A program made the translations under genes and the position numbers. The notes below the pieces were generated by a model. The model was not told where the DNA came from. It searched no databases and worked only from the letters and a program-made list of their open reading frames with translations. From an uncultured bacterium (GTDB lineage: Bacteria > Babelota > Babeliae > Babelales > Babelaceae): 64,000 bases of DNA. Where the stretch lies: contig CAWKFG010000005.1 of assembly GCA_963848965.1 (NCBI GenBank), forward strand, positions 1-64,000, written 5' to 3'. Numbering within the stretch: the first letter of the stretch is position 1; each line of letters opens with the position of its first letter. Shown here in pieces: positions 496 through 36,726 of the stretch.

Positions 496-585
496 CAAGA
501 TAGGTCCTTTTTGCGTAAATTGAATCAGGTTATTGTCAGCGATAAAGCAGCGCCTCGAAACGGAGTCAACGCGCCGATATGGCGA

Positions 586-3564: not shown

Positions 3565-3639
3565 CAGGCTTTGGCTGGAGCAAGCGGTTTTCGCCGGCGG
3601 GGCTTACGACCATTCAGGCGACCCGCTAAGGCTGCCCAC

Positions 3640-4800: not shown

Positions 4801-4906
4801 ACGCAAAGCCGCTTTCGGTCGCAATGACCTTACTCCACCATCTTGAATGTGGGCGCTTGCGACGCGATGTAGGCAGGGCTGCCTGATAACGCCTTGGAGA
4901 CCGCGC

Positions 4907-5190: not shown

Positions 5191-5195
5191 AGCCT
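5185..5195. other. Junction between two unrelated genomes (contig concatenation or chimera)
   Basis: Abrupt change from high GC to AT-rich. A gene is cut on the left and an ncRNA is cut on the right. Confidence 0.9.
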
Positions 5196-5403
5196 CGCCA
5201 ATGTTATAGAGCGGTATATATCAAGAGCACTAGCTTATACCCTCAGCTTATTTAACCCTTGAATTACAGAGCTTGGAACTGGCTTCGCATTCCAAAGTGT
5301 GATCTTTAACACTCCTCTATAACGTAGTCCTCTGCTTTCGCTTGGACTTAAGCTGGTCAACGCGAGCTTTTGCAAGCTACGTCCTTAGGACGTGGTAGTT
5401 GAC
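5191..5403 (-). ncRNA. HEARO / OMEGA (omega) RNA scaffold of an IscB-type IS200/IS605 element, 3'-truncated at the junction
   Basis: The minus strand reads GTCAACTACC-ACGTCCTAAGGACGT-AGCTTGCAAAAGCT-CGC-GTTGACCAGCTTAAG...GGACTACGTTATAGAG...GGAATGCGAAGCCAGTTCCAAGCTCTG...GGTTAAATAAG...AGTG...CTCTATAACATTGGCGAGGC. This follows the HEARO consensus order, and the stems pair. Confidence 0.88.
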
Positions 5404-5548
5404 CTCTATCTCCTAAAAATAACTATTACAAGTATATACTTACAATTTATTGTTTTATACCTTCTTAGTATATAATAAATTTTATATTTTTCACATCACC
5501 ATAAACAACTAAAGATAAAGAAAGCCAAGAGCTTTAGCTCATCGTTAT

Positions 5549-20484: not shown

Positions 20485-20880
20485 CTAATTTTCAAAAGTA
20501 AACTCTATGTCTCCATTTTTCTCGATCATAATAATTGTATTTGGCTGCTGAATTATTACATCTACCCAATCATTAATAATTTTTAACATATGCTCTTTTG
20601 TAGTACTAAAGTAATTAAAGTATTCTTCTTCAGGATCCCATATAAAACCCGGATAAACTCTTCCCTTTTTTTCTCTCAAGCCATGTGCATTGCTAAAGGC
20701 TTCATTTTGCTCATACTTACCTTTAAGCCAATCAGTAAAGAAGTTATAACTTAAGTCCCCCATAATTGCACGTGCCAAAAACACACCTAGTATATATAAA
20801 GAATCATCGTTATAATCTACGATTGTATAATCTTTATATTGAGTTATTTTAAATCTTACAAAATGTACTCTACTTTCCAT
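20485..20880 (-). CDS. Putative cognate immunity protein of the EndoU toxin
   Basis: Small aromatic/acidic ORF overlapping the toxin gene end by 11 nt. Confidence 0.75.
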   Translation of the reverse strand: MESRVHFVRFKITQYKDYTIVDYNDDSLYILGVFLARAIMGDLSYNFFTDWLKGKYEQNEAFSNAHGLREKKGRVYPGFIWDPEEEYFNYFSTTKEHMLKIINDWVDVIIQQPNTIIMIEKNGDIEFTFEN

Positions 20881-23800
20881 AATATTTCCGTTCTAAAGGG
20901 ATGTTCCAATTACTATGAGTAGGATAAATTGAAATCACCTCAGCAGTTATCGAATTTATATACATTAAAAGAGAGCCATCTCTATAGGGTAATCTTACTT
21001 CAATTATCTTTTTAGGATCTGGCTTAAAGTTGCTAAAATCCATTGCTTGAAGGCTACTTACTACTTCTTTAATTACTTTCAGTGGCGAAACATCATTAGG
21101 AAAAAAAGACGATTCTTTTCGTTCATTACCGTGTTGAATTAATGCTCTATATAAACCACTAGGTTCTTCTTCTGGATGTAAAAACTTAATCTTCCCAGCT
21201 CTTTGTATAGTGCCCTTATAATCAAAGTGAAGGCCACCAATTTTGCCACATTTACTGATATCTAATTTAAAGAGATGATCCCAATTTATTTTTAAAGGTT
21301 TACTAAAACCCTTGACATGAATTTTACCATAAAGTCTATTACAAGCATTAATAACCGACATAAGATGATGTGCTTGCTTCGGGGTATTAACAATAGAGCA
21401 GATATCTTTTACTCTCTTTGCAAAACGCTCTTTTGAGATACCAGCTTTTTTTGCTTTTCTTTCAGAGCTTCTGAATGATCTTGTTTTTCTATATTTGCTT
21501 TCTAACTTTGCTGCACTCTGCTGTAATTGATGAAACTGATCTGTATTATTTGTACCTTGTGTAAAGGCATTAGTTACCTGAGGAAGAATATTTTTTTGTT
21601 TTGCACTTTCAATAAGACCAGCTATACTGCGCCACATAAATAAAGCATCAGCTATATCCATTCCTATTCTTACAGCAAATCTGCCAACATCATAAGGCTT
21701 GCCTTCTAAAGCAGCATTATACATTCCTGAAATATCGCTTAAATATTGCTCTGGTCTATTACATAGCGCATAACCAGTACCTATAATTTTTGCAGGTAAG
21801 CTAAGGTAAGGCACAAACCGTAAAAACTGTGTAGCTCGTGCTGAATTAGCAATAAATGGAGCTATTTTAGCTGCTACCGGCGCAGCGATTTTAGATCCTA
21901 CTGTTACTGTTGCAGCTATAGCCATAGATTCCAGTGTAGCATAACACCTACTGAGCATCTGCTGCGCAGTTTCGTCCCACATCCCCCGTAAAGCATTTCC
22001 TACACTTTGTAAAACTGCGTAAACTTCACGAGCTTCTTCAGTCTTATTTTGAGCATTAAGCCTTAATGACCACTCAGTAATGGTTTGAACAAGTAATTTT
22101 TCACCTTGCATATCTGGTACTTGAGAAAAGTCTTTTAAGGACTGAATTACTTGTTGTTGGAATTCAATTTGAGCTGGTCTGGACAAGGGCTCAATAAGAC
22201 TATCACAATGTATATTAAAGTTATTTGCAAGGCCAAGTAGTTGTGGATAATCCATACCAAAAGACTCTTTAAGCCGCTCGTTCCTAAATGCTGTTGATTT
22301 TTCCTTTAAGTAACCGTATGCAGTTCCTGCTCTTTGTTTGAGTAGATTATCAAGATATGGATTATAAGCTGTAAGATCTTGAGCTAACTTTCCAAGTTCT
22401 TCAACGTCTATGATAGTCTTATCGGGATTAACTGTGAATCCACCTTGCCTTGGTACAAATAGACTGTGCAATCGATTTGAAATTACTGTAGCAAGTTTTG
22501 CTTCTAACTCATCCTTTTGCTTAAGAGGTCTATTATATTCAAAAGTATAGTAACTTAAACGTGGATTCTCTCTCAGTTTTTGACCAATCTCTAACAATTT
22601 ATCATGATCAGCTTTTGTATAGTTTTTCTTAGCACAGTAATTATTAAGCGTACGGCTTAGCAGCTGAGCCTCAAGTCTTTGTTCCATTATTTCCGCTGCT
22701 CTTGTATTTAGATAAGCTAAAGCCTGAGGAGGAACCAAGTTTGCTAACTTTTTATCTTTAGCAACTGCAAGAATACGATCTTCAACTTTATGCCACATAC
22801 CTTTGTTAGCTATCTGCTTTTCTAACAAAGCACAATATGTTACAAAATGCGAATCACTAAAAGAAGAAGCCAATTTCCCTGCATCTAAGGCAGGAGCCAT
22901 AGGCAATACTCGCTCTATAGCATTTTCTATGTTAAAATTATTTTTAATATAGCTATACTGATCTGCTAATTGATTGCCCGTTGTAATTCTCGCTACCTCG
23001 CTACGCTCTTCTTGTGCAGTAGCCAAGGCTGGAAATTTTAAAATATTTTCAGGAGTCATCCCATCAAGAATTTTATTTATATCTTCTCGATCGTGAGGAT
23101 TTCTAATATTAAGCATAGCTCTTAAGCCGTTAAAGCTTATATGAATACATTGCTTTTGTAACTCTTTTTCGCTTTGAATATCAAAAACATCAGAAAGAAA
23201 TAAGTTGCGGTTTACAAAAGCTTCCATAACTTCTCTCGGTATCTCACGAAATTGTACTTGAGATACCTCTAAATTGCATCTACTTTCATATGTTTTAATA
23301 GTATTGACAAGCTCTATAGCATAAGGAGTCGGCTTAAGTGTTTCTTGCTTAATATAACATTCAATAGGTCTAAAAAATAACTTTGTCCTAGAAAACATTA
23401 TAACTGCCCCACGCTCACGTATGTAAAATTCAGAATCTAGCTTATTCATTGCAGCTCGGCAACTAGGAACTTCAAGTTCAAATCCCATTTTTTCAGCTCT
23501 TTTAAGAAGCTTTTTACAAAAATAAGGATTATGAGCATTTTGTAAAAGTGTTATGCTCATATACTCCTTAAGCTGTTGCTGTATTTCAGGTTGATTAATG
23601 AACTCTTCCTGACTCATTATCTCATAGTTCAATCTTACTGCCGAACTTTGAGCACGTTTCGCTTTAAATTCTTGCACAGCGAAAAGTTTTTTAGAGTCTA
23701 CAGAAACATCTTCTTCTAAATCTGAAAATGGCGCCAAAATACTATGCTTTTGAGGCCCCTCCTTTTGTGTTAGCGTATGCTTATTGGTAGATTTAGACGC

Positions 23801-25384
23801 TACATATTGGTTTACTGGAGTATTTTTTGGAAATAATAACACTTTAGAGTGACCATCATAATTTGCTTGCCCAAGCTGCTTTTGTAAGTTTTTTCTATAC
23901 GCTTCACATTCAGGCAGAAGAACTTCAGAAAATTTAGCGAATAAATTGAGAGCCTCTTGAGATTTACCTTCTACATTAAGCATATGAACATGATGAGCAA
24001 GTTTAACTAATAAATCAGCATGAATAGCAGCAGCGTTACCCTGTTGTGTAGGATTATCACAAGCATTTGCAAGAGTTTGTTCTACTTTAGCAAGTACACT
24101 CTTTAATTGATGATATACCAACTCTTGTCGTACAGATTTGACTTTACTCTCTGCTTCTTGAAGCACTTTTGTATATTCTTGAGCACTCCGCTTTGCCTTT
24201 GCTATCAAATCAGGTTTGCAAGCCTCTATATCTCTTCTTACAACAGTACACAGAAGGGTATCTAAATCAAAAGCACCAGGCATTGAGTACACTTTATCAA
24301 TAGTACTTACCAAGAATTCAAATGAACTTGTGTTATGAGAAGTTGTATTAAGCACTTCAGTTACCTTAGATACCAAGGTAGCCGCATCCTTAGGCTTGCC
24401 AGCAGCATTTAATATGTTACCAATATGTGCGGTTCTAAGAGCATACTGAAAAAGAACGTTATTCCGTTGAACCTCTTGAGACTTTAGACTATTATTGCTC
24501 TCCCTCATTTTAAAACTTCGAAATGCTAAGCCACACACGTGCTCTTGTACTTTCGCTTGCAACTCGTTCTGGTAAGAATGGGTAAAATCACTATAAAGAA
24601 TACCCTTGTCTGCTTGTATATTAGTAAGGGCGTAATAATACTCTTGAGCAAACTTTAAGTACATATGTTCTAATTTTCCGTTTCTCAATGCCGCAATAAT
24701 ATATCTAATTCCTTGCTCGATTTGACTTTTTGCTTCTTGATTAGAACTATCAAGTAAAAGAAAATAGTTAACGTAACGTAATATCTCTTTGCTTTTATGC
24801 TTTGAACTCTGTAATTGTATAAGCTGAGGAAATTCCTTAATCTTACTCTCTAATGGTTTTAAAATGCCAAATGAAGTAAAAAGCTCTTCATCTTTATAAG
24901 AATCGGTATCATCTATCACATAATCCACAACTTGCTTTACAGAAGAAATGTTCCTAAAGTCCTCAGTTGTTGAATCAAATAACATATGAACAAACTTTTT
25001 CAGTGGCTCATTTTTAAGAATTGTTAACTCTTTTTGCAATGCTCCATTCATTAGAGGATAGGCACAATCTTCAATAGTGAGCTCAGTTACCAAATCAAAC
25101 TTATTTTCTAATCTGCTCTCTGAAGAACTTTTAAGGACAGTATCATGTATATCAGATCCTTCCAGTACACTACCCTTAGAAGAAATACCCTCTTTTAATA
25201 TCCAATCCTGCAAACTGCAACCATCCTTATCTACTGCATAAGGATGCTCCGAGCAAAAAGCAATTAACTGTGCAAGTATTCTTTGCGAATCCTTTTTACT
25301 CATTTTTTGCATACTCATCCCAGTCAAAAATGGGATATAAAAAAAAGCTAGAAAACTCCAATAGCTTTTCTTTAACCATTTCAT
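20870..25384 (-). CDS. Large secreted polymorphic-toxin-like protein with a C-terminal bacterial EndoU-type RNase domain
   Basis: Signal peptide, long helical body, hydrophobic pre-toxin region, then WDHLF...GKIGGLH...SSFFPND...ISIYP (EndoU_bacteria pattern H...GGH...FFP...YP). Confidence 0.75.
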   Translation of the reverse strand: MKWLKKSYWSFLAFFYIPFLTGMSMQKMSKKDSQRILAQLIAFCSEHPYAVDKDGCSLQDWILKEGISSKGSVLEGSDIHDTVLKSSSESRLENKFDLVTELTIEDCAYPLMNGALQKELTILKNEPLKKFVHMLFDSTTEDFRNISSVKQVVDYVIDDTDSYKDEELFTSFGILKPLESKIKEFPQLIQLQSSKHKSKEILRYVNYFLLLDSSNQEAKSQIEQGIRYIIAALRNGKLEHMYLKFAQEYYYALTNIQADKGILYSDFTHSYQNELQAKVQEHVCGLAFRSFKMRESNNSLKSQEVQRNNVLFQYALRTAHIGNILNAAGKPKDAATLVSKVTEVLNTTSHNTSSFEFLVSTIDKVYSMPGAFDLDTLLCTVVRRDIEACKPDLIAKAKRSAQEYTKVLQEAESKVKSVRQELVYHQLKSVLAKVEQTLANACDNPTQQGNAAAIHADLLVKLAHHVHMLNVEGKSQEALNLFAKFSEVLLPECEAYRKNLQKQLGQANYDGHSKVLLFPKNTPVNQYVASKSTNKHTLTQKEGPQKHSILAPFSDLEEDVSVDSKKLFAVQEFKAKRAQSSAVRLNYEIMSQEEFINQPEIQQQLKEYMSITLLQNAHNPYFCKKLLKRAEKMGFELEVPSCRAAMNKLDSEFYIRERGAVIMFSRTKLFFRPIECYIKQETLKPTPYAIELVNTIKTYESRCNLEVSQVQFREIPREVMEAFVNRNLFLSDVFDIQSEKELQKQCIHISFNGLRAMLNIRNPHDREDINKILDGMTPENILKFPALATAQEERSEVARITTGNQLADQYSYIKNNFNIENAIERVLPMAPALDAGKLASSFSDSHFVTYCALLEKQIANKGMWHKVEDRILAVAKDKKLANLVPPQALAYLNTRAAEIMEQRLEAQLLSRTLNNYCAKKNYTKADHDKLLEIGQKLRENPRLSYYTFEYNRPLKQKDELEAKLATVISNRLHSLFVPRQGGFTVNPDKTIIDVEELGKLAQDLTAYNPYLDNLLKQRAGTAYGYLKEKSTAFRNERLKESFGMDYPQLLGLANNFNIHCDSLIEPLSRPAQIEFQQQVIQSLKDFSQVPDMQGEKLLVQTITEWSLRLNAQNKTEEAREVYAVLQSVGNALRGMWDETAQQMLSRCYATLESMAIAATVTVGSKIAAPVAAKIAPFIANSARATQFLRFVPYLSLPAKIIGTGYALCNRPEQYLSDISGMYNAALEGKPYDVGRFAVRIGMDIADALFMWRSIAGLIESAKQKNILPQVTNAFTQGTNNTDQFHQLQQSAAKLESKYRKTRSFRSSERKAKKAGISKERFAKRVKDICSIVNTPKQAHHLMSVINACNRLYGKIHVKGFSKPLKINWDHLFKLDISKCGKIGGLHFDYKGTIQRAGKIKFLHPEEEPSGLYRALIQHGNERKESSFFPNDVSPLKVIKEVVSSLQAMDFSNFKPDPKKIIEVRLPYRDGSLLMYINSITAEVISIYPTHSNWNIPLERKYYGK

Positions 25385-25701
25385 GATAATCCCCCTTCAC
25401 TTTATATGCTGCTTGTATAACGAGTGCTTAAAAGCAAACGTTATCGCCTAGAATAGAATTATATTTCACATATGTCAATAATGATTTTATAAAAAGCTAT
25501 AACATACCTAATTAACTTTTTTATTGGAAAATAAAAGAGGGCGTTTATACGATTAATTGTTTCTGGATGTAATGAACATTGGCCCGTATTGAAAAAAGAG
25601 GTTGACATGGCTAAGAACTAAATTATACTTAGCTGTAATTATTAAGCAGTGTAAAGTTAAAATATTAAAAACTATGCTAACCATATTTGAAGGGAATTGT
25701 T

Positions 25702-28700
25702 ATGTATAGAAATCTTTTTATGCTCTTTTTACTATCTTTTACGTCTTTTACGCTTTTTAGTATGGAAAAGGGCAAAGGCTCTCCAAGAAAATCAAAGCAC
25801 ATAGGAATGAAAAGTAGCATACCACAAAATACTAAGCGACAATCTGACACATTTGAGCCTGAGCTGTTTGAAGACTTTGGTGCACAACAACCTGTGCATG
25901 AATACATGCAATTAGAGGTTATCAATCAAGATGGAATGCTTGGTGGTAGTGCTAGTTGTGGTTATCATGCACTTAAAAATGGTCTTATTATTGCTCGCCT
26001 TTTATCTGCAGAAGAAGAACATAAACATGAAATTCAAGCTCTTTTAACGTTAAAGGCACCTGTCAGTGAGCTATTTGGTGATAAAACAAGTGTGTGGAGA
26101 GCGTATATCATTGAAGCTCGAGCGAAACAATTGGCTTCATGGTATATAAGAGATGTTTTATTAAAAAGCATTAAGGGTGCTCGAGTAGCAGAGCAAGGAA
26201 CGTATGATTTAAACTTAGCACCTACGAAAGTATCTTTTGAGCCTTTTGCTGCAGGCTCTCAAGAGAATGAGATAGAAAGACGTGCATTGCAAGGAATACT
26301 CTCATCAGTAAGTCAGCGTATAGCCGCTACTCAAGGTGTAAGGCAAGGAGATTTGCTACGTTATGATATCTCTTTAGAAGCGGTTACCCGTATAGCACAA
26401 GAATGGTTTATTAAAACCATAAAAGAAGATGACAATAAGACTGCATATCAAGCATTACACAATATTGCTAGAATTATGAGCTATTTTCCTCATTTTGCGC
26501 AACTTTCTTTCTCAATTCAAGATGACAACATTATTCTCTCAGGACGTCAAGAAACTATATACCGTCACACTTATAGTGGAGGGAAAGGTAAAGTAAGAGG
26601 TGGGGGAATTGGAGGATTCGGTCAATGGCTTGAAACAGAGGAAATTAAAGCGCTTTATGCACTTGAAAAAGAGCGTAATAGCGAATTAGTGCAAGAACTT
26701 TTTAATAGTGCACATGTATCATTTAAAGAGATTCTTTATATTGAAGATCCTTTTGAAAATCCATTACAAAACCAATTTGAGATGAATGCTGAGTTGCAAT
26801 CGCTTGCTCAAGATATGCAAAGCCCTTTCAGCTCATTCACTGCCGTTTTAATTATACACCAATCAGGCTTTCCTCATTGGTTTACCTGTGTTATTAAAAA
26901 GCAACGTAATAAAATACAGTATGTTTTTGCCGATTCTTCTCAGACTCCTCGTATTAATGATATTCATGCTCGAAATGTTATACGAGTACTCAATGGAGAA
27001 AATCCAATAGAGCAGCCTCGTCCACAGAACCGATCTGCAGGACCTAAAAAAGCAGAACCGTCTTCACAGAATGCATCTACAAAATTAGAAACTAAAGATC
27101 AACAATCGCAAGAAAATACAAAGCAAGAAGAACTTAAGTATTCTCAAGGGTCAATGCCAAAACCAGAAGATATTTTTAAGGCATTTATGTCTCAAGGCTC
27201 TGATAACGGGACAATCAACTATAGCGTAGGTATACCAACTATTACGCTTGAAGATCTTATTGGAGTCCCACAAGAAATAGTAAGGACTGTTCAAGCACTT
27301 AATAATCCACGACCACATAATAGGCGTTTGGGGATGCTTCTATATGGCCCACAAGGAACAGGTAAAAGTACGCTTGCTGAAGCTATAGCAGGTTCTACTA
27401 AACGTGAGTTGTTTATGGTCTTTGCCTCTAACGTGGTCACTAAGTTTCAAGGTTCTGGTGCCCAAACTATTCAAGACATCTTTGCTCAGGCAGCAAAAGC
27501 ACAAAGGCCAGTTATTGTCTTTATAGATGAGATAGACTTGATTACAGGAAAAACTGATGCAGGTAATGCTAATGCTCGCTCATATGAAGAAGCTCGAGTA
27601 GCTTTACAAGCTGAGCTTGGCAAAAAGAACCCAAATATATTCTTTATGGCTGCTACTAATCATTTAGAGAACATCGATCTAACTATCCGTAGTAGGCTTG
27701 ATGATTATACAATTAAAATAGACCTGCCTACGAGGGATGACCGTAGACAAATCTTTGCTCTTCATGCACGCAAAAACGAAATCGTGATAGAAGAAGCTCT
27801 GCTTAATAAATTAGCCTCTGCAACAGAAGGGCTCTCTGGACGACACATAGAAAGAATTGTATTAAAAGCTATAGCTTTAGCAGATGCACGAGATCAAGAA
27901 AAACTTACCGTAACAGAGCAGGATCTCTATAGTGCTCTGTATTTTCACGATGAACGTGTACCTCAGCAACCACAACGAGAAACAATGTTAAGCCACTTTG
28001 CTGCAGGTAAAACTAATATTGATGCTGCAACATATCGACGTCTTGCTGCTGAAACTGCAGGCCTTACAGGAAGGCAAATAGAGGAAGTTGTGACAAAAGC
28101 AGTATTACTAGCTCAAAGTAATAATAAGCAAAATCAAGCTAGTGAAAATCACTTTCTTATTGCAACTTATTTGATAAAGCCAGACAAGAAGCCAAATAGG
28201 ACAGTAAGAGAAATATTGTTTAAGCACTATATGGACGGTAAAGGTTTCTTGATTCGTGAAGAATCTGCAGCAGGTGTTGCAGAAAGAACAAAGGAATTAA
28301 GTGGTCAACAGCTAGAAATTATTGCAAATAAAACAATGAAAATAGCTGAAAAAATAAATAAAGGTTTTCTTTATTTTAATAATATGCTTGCTGCTACATA
28401 TTCTAAACAACCTGAATATCAAGTGGTTAACTTAGATGATGCGGTAGTATTAGCTCGTTATTATTTACGTGGCAAACAAAACAATTTATCTGATGCTTAT
28501 TTGAAAACAAGGCTAGAACTAGTAAAAGACTTAACACCTAAGCAAATTAAGCTTATTATTAAAGATGCTTATAAATCAATGCAAGAGACTAAAGTTGACT
28601 CAATTACAGAACATGACTTTAATGTTGCCAGTATGCACCTTAAAAACTCTGTGTATTGCTCCAAAATAGACTTTGAATCATGTCTCATTGTAAAAAGCCG

Positions 28701-28938
28701 GGGAAAGCGAATACAAGTTTCTCATGATTTCTTTCATAGGCTTGCTTATGAAGGAGTCAAAGGCTATCAGGATGGGACAATGGTGTTGAACAGTGTAGTC
28801 AAAAATCTAATGGGCATGGCAGAACTATATGCTCAAAAGCGGGGCAGCACTTATATAAATAAGATAGATTTTATAAATGCTTTAAAAGATCAAGATGTAT
28901 TCGTATGTGATCCAGAAGCATCCTGTAATTTATTTTAG
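25702..28938 (+). CDS. Secreted fusion: Josephin/papain-like cysteine protease + AAA+ ATPase + tandem AAA lid repeats
   Basis: Start MYRNLF. Q...SCGYHALKN, PHWF and FADS form a putative triad. LLYGPQGTGKS, VFIDEID, AATNH and IRSRL define the AAA domain. Repeated T.GLSGR.IE lid units follow. TTGACA-16-TATACT promoter at 25602-25629. Confidence 0.82.
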   Translation: MYRNLFMLFLLSFTSFTLFSMEKGKGSPRKSKHIGMKSSIPQNTKRQSDTFEPELFEDFGAQQPVHEYMQLEVINQDGMLGGSASCGYHALKNGLIIARLLSAEEEHKHEIQALLTLKAPVSELFGDKTSVWRAYIIEARAKQLASWYIRDVLLKSIKGARVAEQGTYDLNLAPTKVSFEPFAAGSQENEIERRALQGILSSVSQRIAATQGVRQGDLLRYDISLEAVTRIAQEWFIKTIKEDDNKTAYQALHNIARIMSYFPHFAQLSFSIQDDNIILSGRQETIYRHTYSGGKGKVRGGGIGGFGQWLETEEIKALYALEKERNSELVQELFNSAHVSFKEILYIEDPFENPLQNQFEMNAELQSLAQDMQSPFSSFTAVLIIHQSGFPHWFTCVIKKQRNKIQYVFADSSQTPRINDIHARNVIRVLNGENPIEQPRPQNRSAGPKKAEPSSQNASTKLETKDQQSQENTKQEELKYSQGSMPKPEDIFKAFMSQGSDNGTINYSVGIPTITLEDLIGVPQEIVRTVQALNNPRPHNRRLGMLLYGPQGTGKSTLAEAIAGSTKRELFMVFASNVVTKFQGSGAQTIQDIFAQAAKAQRPVIVFIDEIDLITGKTDAGNANARSYEEARVALQAELGKKNPNIFFMAATNHLENIDLTIRSRLDDYTIKIDLPTRDDRRQIFALHARKNEIVIEEALLNKLASATEGLSGRHIERIVLKAIALADARDQEKLTVTEQDLYSALYFHDERVPQQPQRETMLSHFAAGKTNIDAATYRRLAAETAGLTGRQIEEVVTKAVLLAQSNNKQNQASENHFLIATYLIKPDKKPNRTVREILFKHYMDGKGFLIREESAAGVAERTKELSGQQLEIIANKTMKIAEKINKGFLYFNNMLAATYSKQPEYQVVNLDDAVVLARYYLRGKQNNLSDAYLKTRLELVKDLTPKQIKLIIKDAYKSMQETKVDSITEHDFNVASMHLKNSVYCSKIDFESCLIVKSRGKRIQVSHDFFHRLAYEGVKGYQDGTMVLNSVVKNLMGMAELYAQKRGSTYINKIDFINALKDQDVFVCDPEASCNLF

Positions 28939-29145: not shown

Positions 29146-30156
29146 CTACTTTGCTCCATGCTTTAAAAGAAGTTGTTTAATGTTTGGATCCTTTGCTAAA
29201 CTTAAAGCAGTCTGATTATCTACATTTTTGACAGAAACATCAGCTTTACGAGCTAAAAGCTGCTCTAAGGCTTCAGGATTATTATAGAATGCCGCATATA
29301 TTAAGGGAGTATTACCCCTTTGATCTTGTGCATTAATATCTGCACCTGCATTAAGAAATATCTGTACCAAGTCTTTATCTCTTCTTTGTATAGCATGCAT
29401 GAGTGGAGTCATTTTATCTTGATCATGAACATTAACGTCTGCTTTAGCTTTAATAAGCATTTGCACTATATCTTTATAAACAACTGGCAGTAAAGCTGCA
29501 CTACCAGTACGTTGAGGTTGCTCTATTGTTGCATATATTAAAGCACTGTTACCAAATCTATCTTGACTATTAACATTGGCATTGGCATTAATAAGCATTG
29601 CTACTACATCTTTATTTTGGCGTAAGACAGCATTCATTAAGGCAGTTTTGCCGTTCATATCTTGCACATTAACATCAATGCCTTGAGCCAAAAGCTCTTT
29701 AACCTTGTCTAGATTTGCATCTATAAGCTCTAGCTGCTTCTGCCACGTTAAAGCTCCAGGAGTACCTAACGCTTTTGCTAGAGTACTCGCGGAGTCTGGT
29801 CGCTTGTTATATAAATCTGCAATAATAATTCTATTAAAATCTGGATCAGTAAATAGCGCACTAAAATTCTTATTCTGAGATAATTCTTTTAATTTCTTGA
29901 GAGCAGCTTCATATTTTAGGGATTTTATCTGATTCAATTGATCATAAAGACCTTTAAATAAAGGACTACCTGTTGAAGATGCCTCTTTAAGCTGTTTCAA
30001 TAAGTCATCAAACGTATAGAGAGCTTTGAAGTTTGCAATAAATTGTGAGATTTCACCTAGTAATTCTTTTGGCAAAAATTTAAAAAAACCTTCCGGCTCC
30101 ATCCCAAAAGCATTTATAAACAATCCTAGTGTTAAGGCACATAATTTTTTATTCAT
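29146..30156 (-). CDS. Secreted F-box-like + ankyrin repeat protein
   Basis: Signal peptide ...FGME, then FFKFLPKELLGEISQFI, then about 5 ankyrin repeats. Confidence 0.88.
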   Translation of the reverse strand: MNKKLCALTLGLFINAFGMEPEGFFKFLPKELLGEISQFIANFKALYTFDDLLKQLKEASSTGSPLFKGLYDQLNQIKSLKYEAALKKLKELSQNKNFSALFTDPDFNRIIIADLYNKRPDSASTLAKALGTPGALTWQKQLELIDANLDKVKELLAQGIDVNVQDMNGKTALMNAVLRQNKDVVAMLINANANVNSQDRFGNSALIYATIEQPQRTGSAALLPVVYKDIVQMLIKAKADVNVHDQDKMTPLMHAIQRRDKDLVQIFLNAGADINAQDQRGNTPLIYAAFYNNPEALEQLLARKADVSVKNVDNQTALSLAKDPNIKQLLLKHGAK

Positions 30157-30304: not shown

Positions 30305-33058
30305 TTAATGGACTCTACTATGATCCTCATCATCTTCAGTTTCAATCAAGTTATATTCTTGGCATCTTCTGTTAACAGAGGATCTATTAACGCCTAAGAG
30401 AATAGCAATCTTGTTTTGATTCTTAAACTTATTCCAAAGCATACTCATAATGTGAGGGTCCTTGAGAGCCTTTTTGCCCATACGAACAGCTTGTACCAAT
30501 TCTGGATCTGTTACATGATACGCTGGATCAAACTCTGTTGTTTCATACAGCTTATGTTTGGTAGACTTAGAGACAAGTAGCTGATGTACCTTCTCTTTTA
30601 ACTCTTGTAAACTGACCGGTCTTTGGCCTAAGAGCCTATCTTTATCTTTATCACTGAGTTGAATAAGATTCTTAAATGTCTCTGTCTTAAGAGCTTGATG
30701 GCTGAATCCTTCAGCAAGATCGGCAACTTCAGTATTTGGAAGTAATGCTAATGATGGCATCACTAGTGAGGCTTTTTTAAGCTCTTGGAATAATGCTTTA
30801 GAGAACTGCCCTTCTGCTACTAAGGTACTTATATTTTTAGAAGAAGAGCAAATGATACGAACATTGCTTACTACTTTATGATCACTTCTAAATTTATGAA
30901 AGTGCCCATAAACAATAAAGTCAGCAAGTGCTTGTTGTGTTTCAAGGCTTAAAAAATGAATGTTTTCTATAAACAAGGTACCATTATCAAGCTTAGAAAG
31001 TAACCCTTCTTCAGCAGCTCCTAAAAGAGGATTAAGGCCAAAGAGCTTTATTGCTATATCATGGTTCTTCTCTTGGCTGTGCAATTTAAGAACATGTAGT
31101 TGTTGGCGCATACTAATGTGATGTAATATCTCTACGGTAGGCATAATATCACCTTCTGCCATTTCTAGCAGAGTAGCTTTTTTACTTAAAGAGACTTCTA
31201 GCATAGCTATCTTAAAATTAAGAAGCTTTTCTCCAGAGCCAGGAATAAGCTGGTTAATAAGCTGTCCTGAGCTTGTTGTTTCTAAGTAAAGAATATAATC
31301 CCATTTTGATGGATCTTTAAGGAGCTCAAATTGTGCTCTCATAATATCTGATACTTCAGGATAATAAAGCATAATAATAACAGTATTATGTTCAAGACTT
31401 GGAATACCAGTAGCTACCACTTTATTACCCTGTTCATCATAGGCAAAAGTACTTTGTACGGTCTTATATTCTTGTATTTTACGACACAAGTTTTTAAGTG
31501 CTACAGCAAGAGGATGTCCTTGCTCTGCATTGATATCTGCACCTATAAGCTCTTGAGCTGCTTCATTTGCATAACTAAATCTTCGTGCTTTATAAAAGAC
31601 AATGCCAATCTTTCTCTCTTTATGAGAGCGTAAGAATGATCGAATACTTTCTTTATAATGGTTAACCTCTTGATGTTTAGCATATAGTTCTTCTTGCAAT
31701 TCCTTTTCCATCTGTTGAAGAGCATCAAGGTTACTGTATTTAAGAAGGTTAATAACATTACTTAAATAGCTGGTAAATACAAGCATTTCATCGCGCTCTT
31801 TACTTGTATACAGCCTTCCAGGGCGAGCATCATGCTCTACAATAATATATGCAGAGATAGCTTTACGCTCATAAATAGGTAAAAAGATGTCAGCATTAAT
31901 ACTGTCTAAAAATGCTACTATCTCATCTCTTTGTTTTGCCTCTTCATAAAAATTAGTAAACTCAATCTCATCTTTAATAAATATCTTCCATTGATATAAA
32001 CTTGTAACAAGATCGCTTGGTAATTCATGTCGTGCTAAAAACTTTTCTACCTTGTCTTGTGTATGAACAATATCATGATAAAGGTTATTTTTATTGTCTT
32101 GAGGAGCTTCTTCTTGTCGTATATAGAGTCTGACACGCCCTAAAGGTACTTCAAATGCTCGTTCAAAAAAGGTTTGGGTAAGTTGTGAAAGCTCTTTGAG
32201 CGATGTTACATAGCTCAGCTGTTCTAAAATGTCCTTAAAATCAATGATAAAATTAAACCTCTCTTTTGATTCTACATGGTTTTTCAAGTTTAAGAAACGA
32301 AGGCCTATCGTTCTTCTGATAGAGTAATATATTGCAATATTTGTAAGCAATTCTCGTCCTAATGTAATTACTCGCCGATCAAGCAAAAACCACGTGTGAA
32401 GATACGAAAGAAAATACGTAAAGTTAGCAATTTCTATAAGAAGAAGAGGTATAAGAAAACACCGTATTACTATCTTTAATTGACTTGAAAGAATAGAAGG
32501 AAGTATACCTTGCTTAATCTTATAAAAAATTTGATATACTGCTGAAAGTAAAAGAGGGATAAGATAGAACTTACTCATCTGGATCACAGTGCTTTCAGAA
32601 GGAATATCTACCATTTCATATCTAAATGCAGCTGTAAATGCATAATAACCACAAAATAAACTACTTATAACAAAAAATAGATAATCACCCACATCTAAAG
32701 TAAAATCTTTTTTCGCTAAATTCTTTATAAAAAGTGTAAGAGCATAATAACGTACTATAAAGAAAAACCAAGCAATACGACCTGCAAAAGCAATAAAATT
32801 TACCGAATAGCTAAGGCCAAAGACATATTTAGACAAACGAATGATCCATGATACATCATGTACAAGAAAACCAACAATAATAAGAGCAAATAAAAGTATT
32901 AGCTTTTTTGAAATATAGTTTGTATGAAAACTTTTACTTAACAAAAAGGTAAAAAGACCTAGCTTAAAAAGAAAAGAAACGTAGGTCAGGAACAAAAAAA
33001 ATGACGGAGCCGTTACTACATCATAAAAATTATTGATAAATTGAATAATGTACAACAT
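30305..33058 (-). CDS. Membrane-bound one-component regulator: about 7 TM, GAF, PAS-like, degenerate sigma54-activator AAA, Fis-type HTH
   Basis: Hydrophobic first 250 aa. GAF end FLPIY...YTSKERDEML. PAS-like YANEAAQELIG. GTLFIENI...Q..L...NVRIICSS...GQF...LF..L. C-terminal NQNKIAILLGVNRSSVNRR. Confidence 0.85.
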   Translation of the reverse strand: MLYIIQFINNFYDVVTAPSFFLFLTYVSFLFKLGLFTFLLSKSFHTNYISKKLILLFALIIVGFLVHDVSWIIRLSKYVFGLSYSVNFIAFAGRIAWFFFIVRYYALTLFIKNLAKKDFTLDVGDYLFFVISSLFCGYYAFTAAFRYEMVDIPSESTVIQMSKFYLIPLLLSAVYQIFYKIKQGILPSILSSQLKIVIRCFLIPLLLIEIANFTYFLSYLHTWFLLDRRVITLGRELLTNIAIYYSIRRTIGLRFLNLKNHVESKERFNFIIDFKDILEQLSYVTSLKELSQLTQTFFERAFEVPLGRVRLYIRQEEAPQDNKNNLYHDIVHTQDKVEKFLARHELPSDLVTSLYQWKIFIKDEIEFTNFYEEAKQRDEIVAFLDSINADIFLPIYERKAISAYIIVEHDARPGRLYTSKERDEMLVFTSYLSNVINLLKYSNLDALQQMEKELQEELYAKHQEVNHYKESIRSFLRSHKERKIGIVFYKARRFSYANEAAQELIGADINAEQGHPLAVALKNLCRKIQEYKTVQSTFAYDEQGNKVVATGIPSLEHNTVIIMLYYPEVSDIMRAQFELLKDPSKWDYILYLETTSSGQLINQLIPGSGEKLLNFKIAMLEVSLSKKATLLEMAEGDIMPTVEILHHISMRQQLHVLKLHSQEKNHDIAIKLFGLNPLLGAAEEGLLSKLDNGTLFIENIHFLSLETQQALADFIVYGHFHKFRSDHKVVSNVRIICSSSKNISTLVAEGQFSKALFQELKKASLVMPSLALLPNTEVADLAEGFSHQALKTETFKNLIQLSDKDKDRLLGQRPVSLQELKEKVHQLLVSKSTKHKLYETTEFDPAYHVTDPELVQAVRMGKKALKDPHIMSMLWNKFKNQNKIAILLGVNRSSVNRRCQEYNLIETEDDEDHSRVH

Positions 33059-34266: not shown

Positions 34267-36726
34267 TTACTCACCTGTAGTTTGTCTATTGTTTGCTTGT
34301 TGAGCAGGTTGTCTTGGTGATATTCTAAAGGTATCTCTTTTAAGGTCATCATATGCTATATGAATAACGTCCTCTTCTGGCCTCATCTCAATGCGCCTTA
34401 CTTTTATAGAAGACATATGTTCTGTGCTAGAGACTGCACCAGTATATATATTCCAAAATCTTACTGTTCCATCTTCACTTGCAGAAATGAGAGTTTCATA
34501 TTTGCTATAATACTCTATATGAGTTACCGGTCCTGTATGACCTCCAAATACTCTCAGACATGTGCCATTCTTTCTATCCCAAATGCGGATTGTACCATCA
34601 TCAGAACACGAAGCAAGAGCCCTTATAATCTCAATACCATCATTCAGAGTCAAGAGCTTCATATCATTTACTCTTTTCGTGTGACCTATGAGCGTTTTTC
34701 GTAAAGCACCTTCATCTGTTCCCCACTTATGAATAGTTCCATCTCCTGCCCCTGTAAAAAGAGCAGTAATAGTTTTATCATAGACCATAGACCATACAGG
34801 GTGTGTATGCCCTTTTAAAACAAAACGGCACGCATTTGTCTTCAAATCCCACAGTCGTACAGTACAGTCATCTCCTCCTGATGCTAACATATTATAATCT
34901 TTTAAAAAGCATAACGACCATATATATCCTTTGTGCTCTGCAGGAAGCTTAAACTGCCTTAAACCTCCTTTATTTATCAAAATAAAAGGCCCGTCACCAA
35001 GAAAAATAAGAGCGTCTGATTCAGTAAGTGATTCACATAAAATAGCCGTTACATCTTCTCGTAACGTTAAACTACTGACAGAACTAATATCTGTACCATA
35101 ACGAATAGAAGGACAATGAGACCTTATAAAAGTAGATGGTACTGGCTGTCGTCTAACAGAAGAAGTTTCAGTGGTTGCAGAAATCTGCTCACTCACTGCA
35201 AAACGTTTCCAAACTTGTACTGTATTGTAATCACTGATTACAAAAAGAGTACTTCCATCACTACTTATTTTTATGTGTAACGGTTTGTTTCCTGTAGTTA
35301 CAGGAAACTGCTGTTGTCCTTTTGTAGCAACAACTACAACTTCACCTGAAACATAAGCACACGCTAAGTAGTGTCCGTCATAAGTCCAATCAACACAAGA
35401 AATAATTTCAGATCCATTTTTAACAAGTGGCACAGGCAATGTAGTACATAACTTAAGATTATGAGGGCGGCCTAAAAATACAGAAGCCCCTTGAGGATCT
35501 ATAAAGCTACAAGAAAGAGCATCTTTCTCATGGTTCGAAGCACGCATAATATCAGTACAATCGCCAGATTCTCTATTCCATACTTTTACAGAACCATTTT
35601 TTGTAACACCGTAAATCTTTTTGCTATCAGTACTAAATTGTAGTGCGATAATTGTTCCTATAACAGGTCCTTTCGCTATAGTTTTCATACGGCCTGTTCC
35701 TGTATCCCAACATAATAAGTATTTTGAGCCTTCATGCTCTACGGTAGCTGCAAATAAAGAACAGTCAGCATTAAAGGTACCACACGAAGTATTGGTAACC
35801 CACATTTTTCCTTCTCTCTCCATTTGAAGATGAAAAGGAGCTTCATCAAGCAAGCATACTTTTATAATACCTGTAAGAGTAACTACGAAAAGCTCTTGAT
35901 TTTTTTCATTCCATCCAACTAAAGGGCCATGAGTTCGAGTAAGATAAGGCTTTACTTTATCAGCAAGCTCTTTAATAGCTATACAAGTACCTTGTGCAGT
36001 ATCCCACACATACATATAGTTTGATGAAAGAGAGATAAGACGATTTCCATCAGCAGTACAAAAAACAAACTGTAGTGGTGTCTCGTCTTGATGACCTTCT
36101 AAAGCTGTATGACTCAACGAACTTATACATGACCATTTATAGACCGCAGCATCCACTGATGTTTCTTGTGTTGATACTTCGTTCTTGTCTAGTACAGGCT
36201 CCTTTTTCTTTTTTGGTTTACGCTTTTTTCGAGCACTTTCTTGTGCAAAAACAGCTCCCTTTGCAGATCTTTCTTTTATAAGATTGGTAAGATTACTTGC
36301 AGCACACCCATCTCCCTTGTCTCTTCCCTTATTAAGGTATTCTATTGCTTGCTCTCGTTTACCAAGATGTAAATAAGCTACTGCCAAGTTATTATACAGG
36401 GGAAGGATATCTACCTCACTATAAAAGCGAAGAACCCGTAAAAAATAGCTTTTTGCATCCTTATAACGTTCTTGTTTAAGATACACAAGCCCGAGGGAAT
36501 ATAAAGCATATGCTCGTTTTATACTATCTTTGCTCTCGGTAGCAATTTTATCAAAACATTCTATAGCTTCTTTATACTTTTGTTGTTGAACATACGAGAT
36601 CCCCGCTGTATACAGAGATTCATCTGAAGCTGGCTGTTGCTCTTTTTCCATACCAGTAAGAGCACAAAATCCACCGCTTATTCCTATCAGCAAAAATGTT
36701 TTATAATACAAGCTTTTTATAGTCAT
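34267..36726 (-). CDS. Secreted TPR + WD40 repeat protein
   Basis: Signal peptide ...TGME, about 3 TPRs, a basic RKKRKPKKKK stretch, many GH...S.D..WD repeats. Confidence 0.88.
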   Translation of the reverse strand: MTIKSLYYKTFLLIGISGGFCALTGMEKEQQPASDESLYTAGISYVQQQKYKEAIECFDKIATESKDSIKRAYALYSLGLVYLKQERYKDAKSYFLRVLRFYSEVDILPLYNNLAVAYLHLGKREQAIEYLNKGRDKGDGCAASNLTNLIKERSAKGAVFAQESARKKRKPKKKKEPVLDKNEVSTQETSVDAAVYKWSCISSLSHTALEGHQDETPLQFVFCTADGNRLISLSSNYMYVWDTAQGTCIAIKELADKVKPYLTRTHGPLVGWNEKNQELFVVTLTGIIKVCLLDEAPFHLQMEREGKMWVTNTSCGTFNADCSLFAATVEHEGSKYLLCWDTGTGRMKTIAKGPVIGTIIALQFSTDSKKIYGVTKNGSVKVWNRESGDCTDIMRASNHEKDALSCSFIDPQGASVFLGRPHNLKLCTTLPVPLVKNGSEIISCVDWTYDGHYLACAYVSGEVVVVATKGQQQFPVTTGNKPLHIKISSDGSTLFVISDYNTVQVWKRFAVSEQISATTETSSVRRQPVPSTFIRSHCPSIRYGTDISSVSSLTLREDVTAILCESLTESDALIFLGDGPFILINKGGLRQFKLPAEHKGYIWSLCFLKDYNMLASGGDDCTVRLWDLKTNACRFVLKGHTHPVWSMVYDKTITALFTGAGDGTIHKWGTDEGALRKTLIGHTKRVNDMKLLTLNDGIEIIRALASCSDDGTIRIWDRKNGTCLRVFGGHTGPVTHIEYYSKYETLISASEDGTVRFWNIYTGAVSSTEHMSSIKVRRIEMRPEEDVIHIAYDDLKRDTFRISPRQPAQQANNRQTTGE

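What the first reader, a model, noticed from the sequence alone, without database searches (positions are those of the whole stretch)
25702..28938. Secreted Josephin-like protease fused to an AAA+ ATPase, a possible DUB-unfoldase effector
Seen: after the signal peptide come NQDG...SCGYHALKN (Cys codon 25957), PHWFTCVIKK (His, about 26875) and YVFADS (Asp, about 26932), then an intact classical AAA domain. Known: Josephin deubiquitinases such as ataxin-3 have Q...C..H.LNN, HWF and N/D-S in this order, and ataxin-3 works with the AAA ATPase p97/VCP. Inference: one polypeptide may couple ubiquitin removal to ATP-driven extraction of host proteins. The Cys-His spacing (about 300 aa) implies a large insertion.
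Basis: partly seen in the sequence, partly recalled or inferred. Interest (0 to 1): 0.72.

Follow-up and report, generated by a model that had tools for sequence, protein, structure and literature searches.

The report
Cysteine protease fused to AAA+ motor
A bacterium that lives inside protists encodes an apparently exported protein that joins a ubiquitin-protease-like cysteine protease to an ATP-driven unfolding motor; the design recurs in its phylum, is unstudied, and cannot be shown to be a Josephin.

Summary
ORF 25702-28938 (+) encodes 1078 aa: a hydrophobic leader, a cysteine-protease domain (Gln76, Cys86, His392, Asp411; codons exactly where stated), a roughly 70-aa linker, one intact classical AAA+ module, and at least three tandem copies of the AAA lid.

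The family has 136 representatives and occurs in 64 of 151 sampled genomes of the phylum (Babelota/Dependentiae). 35 of 137 sequences carry the AAA fusion. In 16 of 28 aligned fusions Ser replaces the Cys; this protein keeps the full tetrad.

Best reading: an exported Ub/Ubl-type deconjugase tethered at the entry face of a hexameric unfoldase. Activity, export and target are all inferred.

The parts
25602..25629 (+). Promoter-like site TTGACA-16-TATACT, with an AAGGGA Shine-Dalgarno-like stretch 8-13 nt before ATG 25702
   Evidence: One search gives 11 of 12 hexamer matches, but promoter-like sites in the region are no more frequent than in shuffles (8 found against a mean of 13.7). The sequence was read. 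Consensus match only.
25702..25764 (+). N-terminal hydrophobic leader (MYRN + 15 hydrophobic residues, ending ...LFS|ME), Sec-signal-like
   Evidence: 89 of 135 family representatives that start with M have such a leader, including 23 of 34 AAA fusions. The ...[G/A/S/C]-M-E ending is a genome-wide motif (98 of 444 leader-bearing ORFs against a 2.6% background).
25765..25878 (+). Basic, low-complexity stretch after the leader (MEKGKGSPRKSKH...)
   Evidence: Net charge is +4 in the 15 residues after the hydrophobic core. This is atypical for a cleaved Sec signal and shared with P0003 and P0005.
25879..26193 (+). Protease N-block: a beta-strand with Gln70/Gln76, a Gly-rich loop, Cys86 at the first turn of a helix (CGYHALKN), and Trp132-Arg133
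   Evidence: Conservation. In the model, Cys86 is model residue 27, the first residue of helix 27-43. Its best local match in CE-clan alignments is their catalytic Cys motif.
26179..26601 (+). Alpha/beta insertion of about 140-150 aa, specific to this clade, function unknown
   Evidence: The region is variable in the family. It is well folded in the model (pLDDT >90 except residues 237-242). No Pfam match.
26596..27021 (+). Protease C-block: the GQW309LETEEI helix, His392-Trp393 at the start of a strand, and Asp411-Ser412 at the end of the next strand
27022..27231 (+). Low-complexity Pro/Gln/Ser/Lys-rich linker of about 70 aa
   Evidence: poorly conserved and gapped among homologues.
27232..27726 (+). 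AAA+ large subdomain of the classical clade, with all ATPase and pore motifs
   Evidence: Pfam PF00004, E 1e-25. Nearest solved chains are Cdc48/p97/VAT (domain E 1.5e-19). NCBIfam PAN, FtsH and CDC48 models all score below their cut-offs. Motifs.
27727..28638 (+). Tandem AAA-lid repeats: lid 1 aa 676-752, lid 2 aa 753-828, lid 3 aa 829-904, and a weak lid 4 at about aa 910-979
   Evidence: hhalign of lid 1 against the tail gives P 2.2e-11, 6.1e-10 and 0.025. Pfam AAA_lid_3 matches at aa 779-818.
28639..28938 (+). C-terminal tail, possibly a fifth degenerate lid; shorter than in P0002, P0003 and the paralogue
   Evidence: alignment; paralogue open frame of 1177 codons. The lid reading of this tail rests on inspection of the sequence only.
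20870..25384 (-). Divergent neighbour of 1504 aa with a leader and a C-terminal EndoU-like domain; the pairing recurs in a distant genome
   Evidence: Pfam EndoU_bacteria, E 1.1e-3, below cut-off. In L006 the 31%-identical protease-AAA gene has the same divergent neighbour (C-terminal 197 aa at 35% identity, BLASTP E 1e-28). The paralogous locus on C4 keeps a partial homologue.

Best explanation
The gene encodes a multidomain protein of about 122 kDa from a Babelota (Dependentiae) bacterium, a phylum of intracellular parasites of protists.

Shown: behind a Sec-type leader lies a papain-superfamily cysteine protease with a conserved Gln76/Cys86/His392/Asp411 set. It belongs to a large uncharacterised family. 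That family's sequence signature is that of CE-clan (Ulp1/SENP/SseL/CidB) ubiquitin and ubiquitin-like proteases. The beta-strand-Gln-Cys-helix segment, which ends a CE domain, stands here at the start. A 70-aa flexible linker joins the protease to one intact classical AAA+ module, followed by at least three lid repeats.

Inferred: the domain is a circular permutant of the CE fold, which restores the Cys-then-His order seen in Josephins. The AAA module forms a hexameric ring. The N-terminally tethered proteases sit at the substrate-entry face. There they remove ubiquitin or a ubiquitin-like modifier (a cut after Gly-Gly) from host proteins that the ring grips and unfolds. This would work like Rpn11 above the proteasomal Rpt ring, or like the deubiquitinases that act with Cdc48/p97. 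The protein leaves the bacterium through Sec plus a secretin pathway and acts where ATP is available, namely the host cytosol or a host-facing membrane.
For: Domain anatomy.

Family and conservation: 136 representatives at E<=1e-3. Catalytic columns: Cys 106/127, His 118/127, Asp or Asn 127/127.

CE-clan link:
- The family profile against all PDB sequences hits CidB at 7e-5, RickCE at 1.3e-4 and SseL at 1.1e-3 and 2e-3. No Josephin appears among the 14 sequences with E<=10.
- Pfam Peptidase_C48 matches 11 of 73 members at E<=1, best 2.9e-4.
- hhalign against 24 chlamydial CE proteases gives P 6e-4 on the HW...DS block. The N-block's best local match is their catalytic Cys motif, downstream of His/Asp (P 0.038).
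- Among Foldseek's top-ranked chains, the second-look structural list is dominated by CE enzymes: XopD 4.4, RickCE 4.1 at 23% identity, CidB 4.1.
- The protein-atlas feature search lists an ElaD cluster at 0.91 (a lead only).
- The order of secondary-structure elements in the model equals a CE domain with its last third moved to the front (compared with my recalled CE topology).

Coupling: AAA is fused in 30 of 61 long representatives. Adding P0001, P0002, P0003 and P0005 and one short member gives 35 of 137. Pairwise identities go down to about 22-30%.

Host-directed context:
- 89 of 135 representatives have leaders, including 23 of 34 fusions.
- The genome has three secretin genes.
- The window is rich in ankyrin, LRR and WD40 proteins.
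- Dependentiae are reported to export many effectors via Sec (passages of PMC6561590; a type II secretion system in PMC4776705).
- The family occurs in 64 of 151 sampled genomes of the phylum, against 1 of 151 for canonical Peptidase_C48.
Against: - Sequence support for equating the Cys block with the CE Cys block is weak: P 0.038 over 8 columns, and a -1.8-bit second domain on CidB.
- The Pfam C48 model itself does not match this protein at E<=10.
- The Cys-His distance could not be measured.
- No ubiquitin or Ubl binding was tested.
- In 16 of 28 aligned AAA fusions the Cys is Ser, and Gln or His are often lost too. Catalysis is therefore dispensable for part of the fusion subfamily.
- This clade has a +4 basic cluster right after the leader. 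That would favour an N-out/C-in membrane anchor with the enzyme in the bacterial cytoplasm.
- No type III export gate or VirB4 was found, in a genome that is 88.7% complete.
- CE-clan enzymes also include viral processing proteases and YopJ acetyltransferases.
Confidence: 0.5

Rival explanations
1. It is a true, divergent member of the Josephin (MJD) family, related to the bacterial Josephins (SnJOS, PaJOS, BpJOS, PcJOS). It might even be a ubiquitin 'clippase'. On this reading the CE-like motifs are convergent or ancestral papain-fold features.
Confidence: 0.13
2. It is a self-compartment ATP-dependent protease, working like FtsH or Lon. The leader is an uncleaved N-out/C-in anchor, the enzyme faces the bacterial cytoplasm, and the AAA ring feeds bacterial or imported proteins to the cysteine protease for processing or degradation.
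For: The basic cluster (+4) directly after the hydrophobic segment fits the positive-inside rule. AAA needs ATP, which the periplasm lacks. The closest named AAA models include FtsH and PAN. The C1 paralogue carries an extra C-terminal membrane segment.
Against: The protease is N-terminal to the AAA module and tethered by a 70-aa linker, so it sits on the entry side rather than the exit side of the pore where the FtsH and Lon proteases lie (established topology, recalled). Most family members, AAA fusions included, have ordinary Sec-type leaders with neutral or acidic flanks. Papain-fold Gly-Gly-tunnel proteases are poor general degradation chambers. The nucleophile is lost in 16 of 28 fusions.
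Confidence: 0.15
3. The domain acts mainly as a recognition module (a ubiquitin/Ubl or Gly-Gly-tail receptor) or as a non-protease CE-type enzyme (a YopJ/ChlaDUB-like acetyltransferase) that recruits substrates to the unfoldase. Proteolysis would be secondary or absent.
For: 16 of 28 aligned AAA fusions have Ser for Cys and many lack Gln or His, against 3 of 99 non-fused members. Fourteen of them form one well-supported clade. The same genome keeps a fusion with Ser and Arg at the Cys and His positions (C1 paralogue). The CE clan includes acetyltransferases (PMC10318531, passages read).
Against: This protein, its 92%-identical paralogue and P0002, P0003 and P0005 all keep the Gln-Cys-His-Asp set. 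That argues for selection on catalysis in this clade.
Confidence: 0.12
4. It is a maturation protease for bacterial cargo, like adenain or poxvirus I7 among CE enzymes. It would cut Gly-Gly/Ala-Gly-type sites in co-exported effectors, for example the divergently encoded EndoU-like giant protein, with the AAA ring unfolding or dislocating them.
Against: Only two independent instances of the pairing were seen. The C4 paralogous locus is probably a segmental duplicate and lacks the EndoU domain. No cleavage sites were identified.
Confidence: 0.07

Closest known systems
CE-clan (Ulp1/adenain-fold) bacterial deubiquitinases and Ubl proteases: SseL, RickCE, Wolbachia CidB, OtDUB, ChlaDUB, XopD, NopD; eukaryotic SENP/Ulp1
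   Same: They give the only significant sequence matches. The WLxxxEI helix, His-Trp strand, Asp-Ser strand and Gln...Cys-Gly...Asn motifs are shared. They are effectors of intracellular bacteria.
   Different: The catalytic order is Gln-Cys...His-Asp instead of His-Asp...Gln-Cys. The Cys segment is N-terminal, the Gln-Cys spacing is 10 residues across a Gly-rich loop, there is a 150-aa insertion, and the domain is fused to AAA+. The Pfam C48 model does not reach this protein.
Josephin family (ataxin-3, JOSD1/2) and bacterial Josephins/clippases (SnJOS1/2, PaJOS, BpJOS, PcJOS; Hermanns et al., bioRxiv 2024, Mol Cell 2025)
   Same: Papain fold with Gln-Cys first and His then Asn/Asp on adjacent strands. 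A His-Trp motif. Among the best structural matches. Found in amoeba-associated bacteria.
Cdc48/p97 with its deubiquitinase cofactors (ataxin-3, Otu1/YOD1, VCIP135), and Rpn11 on the proteasomal Rpt ring
   Same: A classical-clade AAA+ unfoldase working next to a ubiquitin-removing enzyme placed at the substrate-entry side. The AAA module's nearest solved relatives are Cdc48/p97/VAT.
   Different: Here both activities lie in one polypeptide, with a single AAA module (no D1/D2 tandem, no N-domain) plus extra lid repeats, in a bacterium, behind an export leader. The function is untested.
FtsH, Lon and Msp1/ATAD1 (membrane-anchored single-ring AAA+ machines)
   Same: An N-terminal membrane or leader segment followed by one AAA module. 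FtsH and Lon also combine the ATPase and a protease in one chain.
   Different: The protease is a papain-fold cysteine enzyme placed N-terminal to the ATPase on a long linker, not a C-terminal metallo- or serine-protease chamber.

Membership tests
Josephin (MJD; Pfam PF02099, MEROPS C86) | Significant match to the Josephin sequence profile or to a known Josephin sequence | tested here: not met
   No Pfam match at all to aa 1-470 at E<=10. PF02099 finds nothing in the whole genome at E<=10. Among 73 members scanned at E<=1 it is not among the families hit by two or more members; the list is cut at 25 of 94 families, so at most one member matches. The family profile against all PDB sequences returns no Josephin among 14 sequences at E<=10.
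Josephin (MJD; Pfam PF02099, MEROPS C86) | Catalytic order Gln, Cys (start of a helix), His, then Asn/Asp on the next strand | tested here: met
   Gln76, Cys86 (first residue of model helix 27-43), His392 (before strand 334-342) and Asp411 (after strand 345-351).
Josephin (MJD; Pfam PF02099, MEROPS C86) | Fold specifically closest to solved Josephin domains | tested here: inconclusive
Josephin (MJD; Pfam PF02099, MEROPS C86) | Cleaves ubiquitin conjugates | not testable with these tools
   Needs enzyme assays.
CE clan (Ulp1/adenain fold; Pfam PF02902 and relatives) | Sequence-profile relationship to CE enzymes | tested here: met
   hmmsearch of profile A2 against PDB: CidB 7fiu 7e-5, RickCE 1.3e-4, SseL 1.1e-3 and 2e-3. 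PF02902 matches 11 of 73 members, best 2.9e-4. hhalign P 6e-4. The link is weak for this protein alone: no Pfam hit.
CE clan (Ulp1/adenain fold; Pfam PF02902 and relatives) | Catalytic order His, Asp/Asn, Gln, Cys along the chain | tested here: not met
   The order is Gln76, Cys86, His392, Asp411, and there is no Cys after Asp411 within the domain. 103 of the 104 representatives with both motifs have the Cys motif before the His motif. It is therefore filed as a permuted relative, not as a member.
CE clan (Ulp1/adenain fold; Pfam PF02902 and relatives) | Two Trp residues (WLxD/E helix and His-Trp) that clamp the Gly-Gly tail (role recalled from SENP/Ulp1 structures) | tested here: met
   Trp309 is conserved in 108/127 and Trp393 in 126/127. 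Their spatial arrangement could not be checked without coordinates.
CE clan (Ulp1/adenain fold; Pfam PF02902 and relatives) | Fold match to solved CE enzymes | tested here: inconclusive
Classical-clade AAA+ ATPase | Walker A, Walker B, sensor-1, second region of homology with an Arg finger, pore-loop aromatic residue, lid | tested here: met
   PF00004, E 1e-25. GPQGTGKS 549, VIVFIDEID 604, KFQG 581, AATN 650, RSRLD 663. Aligned to Cdc48 D1 and D2. Arg665 is invariant among the three close homologues, while position 663 is Arg or Lys. Position 663 is Leu in the C4 paralogue.
Classical-clade AAA+ ATPase | Hexameric ring and ATP-driven substrate threading | not tested
   Inferred from the family only. 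No complex prediction was run, because a pass would rest on likeness to solved rings.

The most novel reading that the evidence does not exclude
Babelota bacteria export a whole family of one-chain 'deconjugase-unfoldase' effectors. A circularly permuted Ulp1-type domain either cuts ubiquitin or Ubl marks, or (in its Ser or dead variants) merely captures them. It delivers host proteins to a bacterial AAA+ ring that works inside the host cell. This would be a bacterial, single-polypeptide counterpart of p97-plus-DUB or of the proteasome lid and base. The permuted domain would also be a living intermediate between the Josephin-type (Cys first) and CE-type (His first) topologies.
Probability: 0.2. 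Interest if true: 0.85.

Novelty: new variant of a known kind. Interest (0 to 1): 0.62.

Why it matters
According to the 2026 review I searched (PMC13720258, passages), known bacterial deubiquitinase effectors are stand-alone papain- or adenain-fold enzymes. That review has no occurrence of 'AAA' and one of 'permut', the latter only where it defines the CE fold. My five full-text searches found no description of this family, of a permuted CE domain, or of a protease-AAA effector.

If the reading is right, three things follow. First, a phylum of almost unstudied protist parasites has replaced the ordinary Ulp1-type effector (1 of 151 genomes) with a permuted version (64 of 151). Second, it has repeatedly kept that version welded to an unfoldase. 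This would be a natural experiment on how deconjugation and ATP-driven extraction are coupled. Third, such proteins could serve as compact tools for targeted unfolding of ubiquitylated proteins.

The Cys-to-Ser and dead variants give a built-in evolutionary series from enzyme to receptor.

Tried and rejected
- **Josephin by sequence.** PF02099 on the protein, on its genome, on five family-rich genomes and on 200 Chlamydiota genomes gave nothing usable. The two best Chlamydiota hits (E 7e-4) lack any catalytic motif when read. I therefore had no Josephin sequences for a profile-profile test.
- **Foldseek against PDB.** Neither model gave a match at E<=1e-3. Against BFVD there was also none at E<=1e-3; the best was a Hokovirus protein at 5.6e-3 with rmsd 19.
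- **Structural search with the compact relative P0084.** The wide search was swamped by its N-terminal helical hairpin and says nothing about the protease.
- **The search for related loci with the 73-sequence alignment.** It failed because no conserved stretch was usable. It was rerun with the three close homologues.
- **Word-indexed homologue search.** It found only P0002 and P0003 at similar length, and two fragments among shorter proteins.
- **Sequencing runs.** No RNA holder is listed. This is no evidence on expression or habitat.
- **Earlier-findings look-ups.** All returned nothing.
- **Complex prediction.** Not run.
- **Rejected ideas.** The ORF as an artefact of a wrong frame: homologues align end to end. 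The leader's Met-Glu as the site of this protease: the -1 residues are the small residues expected of signal peptidase I.
Full report
**1. The observation**

The window holds one long ORF on the + strand, ATG 25702 to the stop ending at 28938, 1078 aa. An in-frame TTG at 25687 lies five codons upstream. ATG 25702 is preceded by an AAGGGA Shine-Dalgarno-like stretch and, about 70 nt upstream, by TTGACA-16-TATACT. These are consensus matches only.

Pfam finds PF00004 (AAA) at aa 545-668 (E 1e-25) and an AAA lid. It finds nothing for aa 1-470, even at E<=10.

**2. The N-terminal domain belongs to a real, large family**

An exhaustive HMMER search of aa 1-470 against 1.84 billion representatives gave 136 proteins at E<=1e-3, 39 at <=1e-10 and 6 at <=1e-30.

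Two blocks are conserved, aa ~60-160 and ~300-440. They lie around a variable middle.

Conservation in a 127-row alignment (A2):

| Position | Count of 127 |
|---|---|
| Gln76 | 107 |
| Cys86 | 106 (Ser 19) |
| Tyr88 | 123 |
| Asn93 | 124 |
| Trp132 | 123 |
| Trp309 | 108 |
| His392 | 118 |
| Trp393 | 126 |
| Asp411 | 117 (Asn 10) |
| Ser412 | 120 |

Compact members have about 140-150 residues between Cys and His. The window protein has 306.

**3. Fold**

AlphaFold2 with that alignment gave pLDDT 93.0 and pTM 0.91 for aa 60-440.
- Cys86 is the first residue of a helix that follows a beta-strand carrying the Gln residues.
- His392 precedes one strand of a hairpin and Asp411 follows the next. 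The two are therefore neighbours across the hairpin.
- This is the papain-superfamily arrangement.
- The tools return no coordinates, so I could not measure the Cys-His distance.

An exhaustive structural search returned only papain-fold enzymes, mostly ubiquitin or Ubl proteases, and all are tied:

|---|---|
| ATG4A | 5.8 |
| PaJOS | 5.7 |
| BpJOS | 5.7 |
| OTU 7bu0 | 5.5 |
| PcJOS | 5.5 |
| a SAGA USP | 5.4 |
| JOSD2 | 5.0 |
| OtDUB (residues 243-374 only) | 4.8 |
| ataxin-3 | 4.6 |

Foldseek gave nothing at E<=1e-3. A second look at Foldseek's own top 1000 chains is dominated by CE-clan enzymes: XopD 4.4, RickCE 4.1 with 23% identity, CidB 4.1, SseL 3.9, ASFV pS273R 3.8, and SENPs at 3.2-3.6.

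A compact relative (P0084; model pLDDT 82.5) gave the same tie: BpJOS 6.1, ATG4A 6.0, OtDUB 6.0 (rmsd 3.3 over the C-block), LupA 5.2, NopD 5.2.

The structures therefore say 'papain-fold Ub/Ubl-protease-like' and do not choose a family.

**4. Sequence favours the CE clan, in permuted order**

The A2 profile searched against all PDB sequences hit these chains: the Wolbachia CidB deubiquitinase domain (7e-5), RickCE (1.3e-4), SseL (1.1e-3 and 2e-3), and more weakly OtDUB. No Josephin chain is among the 14 sequences at E<=10, although ataxin-3, JOSD2, PaJOS, BpJOS and PcJOS are in that library (they appear).

Further sequence evidence:
- Pfam Peptidase_C48 weakly matches 11 of 73 members, best 2.9e-4. 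ElaD/SseL-like_C matches 2 of 73.
- Against 24 chlamydial CE proteases, hhalign aligned the HW...DS block at P 6e-4. It placed the family's Cys motif on the CE catalytic Cys motif, which in those proteins lies after His/Asp (P 0.038, 8 columns). HMMER made the same placement on CidB, without significance.
- A third CE-type motif, G-x-W-L-x-x-x-E-I on the helix before the sheet, is conserved.
- The order of elements in the model is: strand-Gln, Cys helix, helices, insertion, WL helix, strand, helices, strand, His strand, Asp strand, helix. This equals a CE domain whose last third has been moved to the front. The CE topology here is from my recall of the Ulp1/SENP structures.
- The 2026 review states that the CE fold is itself a circular permutant of the papain fold (PMC13720258, passage read).

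I hold this at about even odds. The C-block link is significant. The equivalence of the N-block rests on motifs.

**5. The AAA part**

There is one classical-clade module. Its nearest solved relatives are Cdc48/p97/VAT (per-domain E 1.5e-19). PAN, FtsH and CDC48 NCBIfam models all score far below their cut-offs. All ATPase and pore motifs are intact.

The lid (aa 676-752) is repeated in tandem: aa 753-828 (P 2e-11), 829-904 (P 6e-10) and weakly ~910-979 (P 0.025). I know of no described AAA protein with such a lid array; this rests on recall and was not searched.

**6. The fusion is a conserved architecture**

PF00004 is present in 30 of 61 longer family representatives. It is also present in P0001, P0002 and P0003. 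P0005 is counted on its Walker A and B motifs alone. One short member also has it. That makes 35 of 137. Variants include three protease domains plus AAA (P0009) and AAA-protease-AAA (P0011, P0016).

The catalytic columns differ sharply between the two groups:

| Group | Rows | Cys | Ser | Gap |
|---|---|---|---|---|
| Non-fused | 99 | 95 | 3 | 1 |
| AAA-fused | 28 | 11 | 16 | 1 |

Many of the Ser forms also lack Gln or His.

A FastTree of the domain puts 14 of the Ser fusions in one clade (support 98). It puts the window protein with P0002, P0003 and P0005 in a Cys-keeping clade (support 98). These are therefore few events, not many independent ones.

The window's own genome holds four members:
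- this gene;
- an intact 92%-identical paralogue on C4;
- an AAA fusion on C1 with Ser and Arg at the Cys and His positions and a C-terminal membrane segment;
- a stand-alone member.

**7. Organism and export**

The genome is 1.73 Mb in five contigs and 88.7% complete. Titled relatives carrying the domain are Babeliales/Babelota and Parachlamydiales MAGs. Two of these titled records coincide with genomes of the window's 'same order' sample. The phylum is therefore Babelota (Dependentiae).

The family is present in 64 of 151 sampled genomes of the phylum (44 of 97 genera). Canonical Peptidase_C48 is present in 1 of 151.

Leaders are common. 89 of 135 representatives have an N-terminal hydrophobic leader, including 23 of 34 fusions, with ordinary charge patterns.

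In this genome the leaders often end in [G/A/S/C]-Met-Glu: 98 of 444 leader-bearing ORFs, against a 2.6% background. The target's LFS-MEK is an instance.

The genome has three secretin genes. No type III export gate and no VirB4 was found. The literature reports Sec export for 44% of the proteins of a cultured Dependentiae, and type II secretion components in the phylum (PMC6561590 and PMC4776705, passages read).

Against simple secretion, this clade has a +4 cluster right behind the leader.

**8. Mechanism**

Shown: the domains, the motifs, the conservation and the recurrence of the fusion.

Inferred from established AAA+ knowledge (recalled):
- the AAA module forms a hexamer;
- N-terminal appendages face the substrate-entry side, so the tethered proteases would act on a substrate as it is engaged, as Rpn11 does on the Rpt ring or Otu1 and ataxin-3 with Cdc48/p97;
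- a CE-type Gly-Gly clamp suggests ubiquitin or a Ubl as the group removed or recognised.

The Ser and dead variants suggest that, in part of the subfamily, recognition alone suffices.

The rivals are listed with their odds in the Rival explanations section: a true Josephin, a bacterial self-compartment protease, a receptor or acetyltransferase, and a cargo-maturation protease.

**9. Comparison and novelty**

Bacterial Josephins and clippases are known (10.1101/2024.07.24.604956: abstract, section 6 and a methods passage read). CE-clan effectors are textbook.

Circular permutations within papain-like enzymes are documented for other families such as LupA and PPPDE (PMC10318531, passages read).

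My searches and the 2026 review found no permuted CE-type family, no protease-AAA effector and no mention of this family. Supplements of the bioRxiv paper were not available to me and could list further candidates.

I therefore rate it a new variant of a known kind. It is interesting mainly for the conserved enzyme-motor fusion.

Noticed in passing
G000 genome-wide; in the window e.g. 25756-25770 (target) and the start of ORF 29146-30156 (-): Export leaders in this genome very often end in [G/A/S/C]-Met-Glu. 98 of 444 ORFs with an N-terminal hydrophobic segment have M-[E/D] within 18 aa after the hydrophobic core, against 31 of 1187 in a control window. Family members from other MAGs show the same ending. 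It could be a phylum-typical signal-peptidase site or an internal alternative start. One literature search found no description.
   Followed up: partly
window 1-5500; also G000 C1:1-8000, C4:1-18000, C5:121000-128685: Contig ends have 57-72% GC against about 36% elsewhere. The window's first 5 kb encodes an MFS transporter and two ORFs without a Pfam match. This looks like chimeric joins with a high-GC organism, or foreign islands at the contig ends.
   Followed up: partly
window 20870-25384 (-); L006:2256-5333 (-); G000 C4:143784-147293 (+): The protease-AAA gene is paired divergently with a giant leader-bearing protein whose C-terminus is EndoU-nuclease-like (Pfam E 1.1e-3 and 4.5e-4, both below cut-off). 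The pairing recurs in a genome whose protease-AAA is only 31% identical (C-terminal domains 35% identical, E 1e-28). It recurs partly at the paralogous locus.
   Followed up: partly
window 27727-28638: The AAA lid domain is repeated three to four times in tandem behind the ATPase. The L006 homologue (1506 aa) also shows lid-like segments before its protease domain, by eye.
   Followed up: partly
window ~26731 and ~27290: Another public assembly of a near-identical organism has this gene in pieces: P0004 is aa 1-343 plus 4 foreign residues, and P0139 is aa ~344-530 and then out of frame. This points to frameshifts there. The window's copy and all homologues are uninterrupted.
   Followed up: partly
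G000 C1:93205-95472 (-): A third protease-AAA fusion in the same genome has Ser for the catalytic Cys and Arg for the His, an intact Walker A and B, and a C-terminal hydrophobic segment. It is a likely pseudo-protease version.
   Followed up: partly
window 5549-7828, 15671-17434, 29146-30156, 34267-36726, 45472-47790, 48009-49373: The window is dense in eukaryote-like repeat proteins (ankyrin, LRR, TPR+WD40) and includes a clostripain-family C11 peptidase. This is typical of host-manipulating intracellular bacteria.
   Followed up: no
window 30305-33058 (-) and 18460-19503 (-): A 917-aa protein with a multi-span hydrophobic N-terminal half and a partial sigma-54-interaction (AAA+) domain, and a separate small 347-aa AAA protein, lie close to the target.
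   Followed up: no
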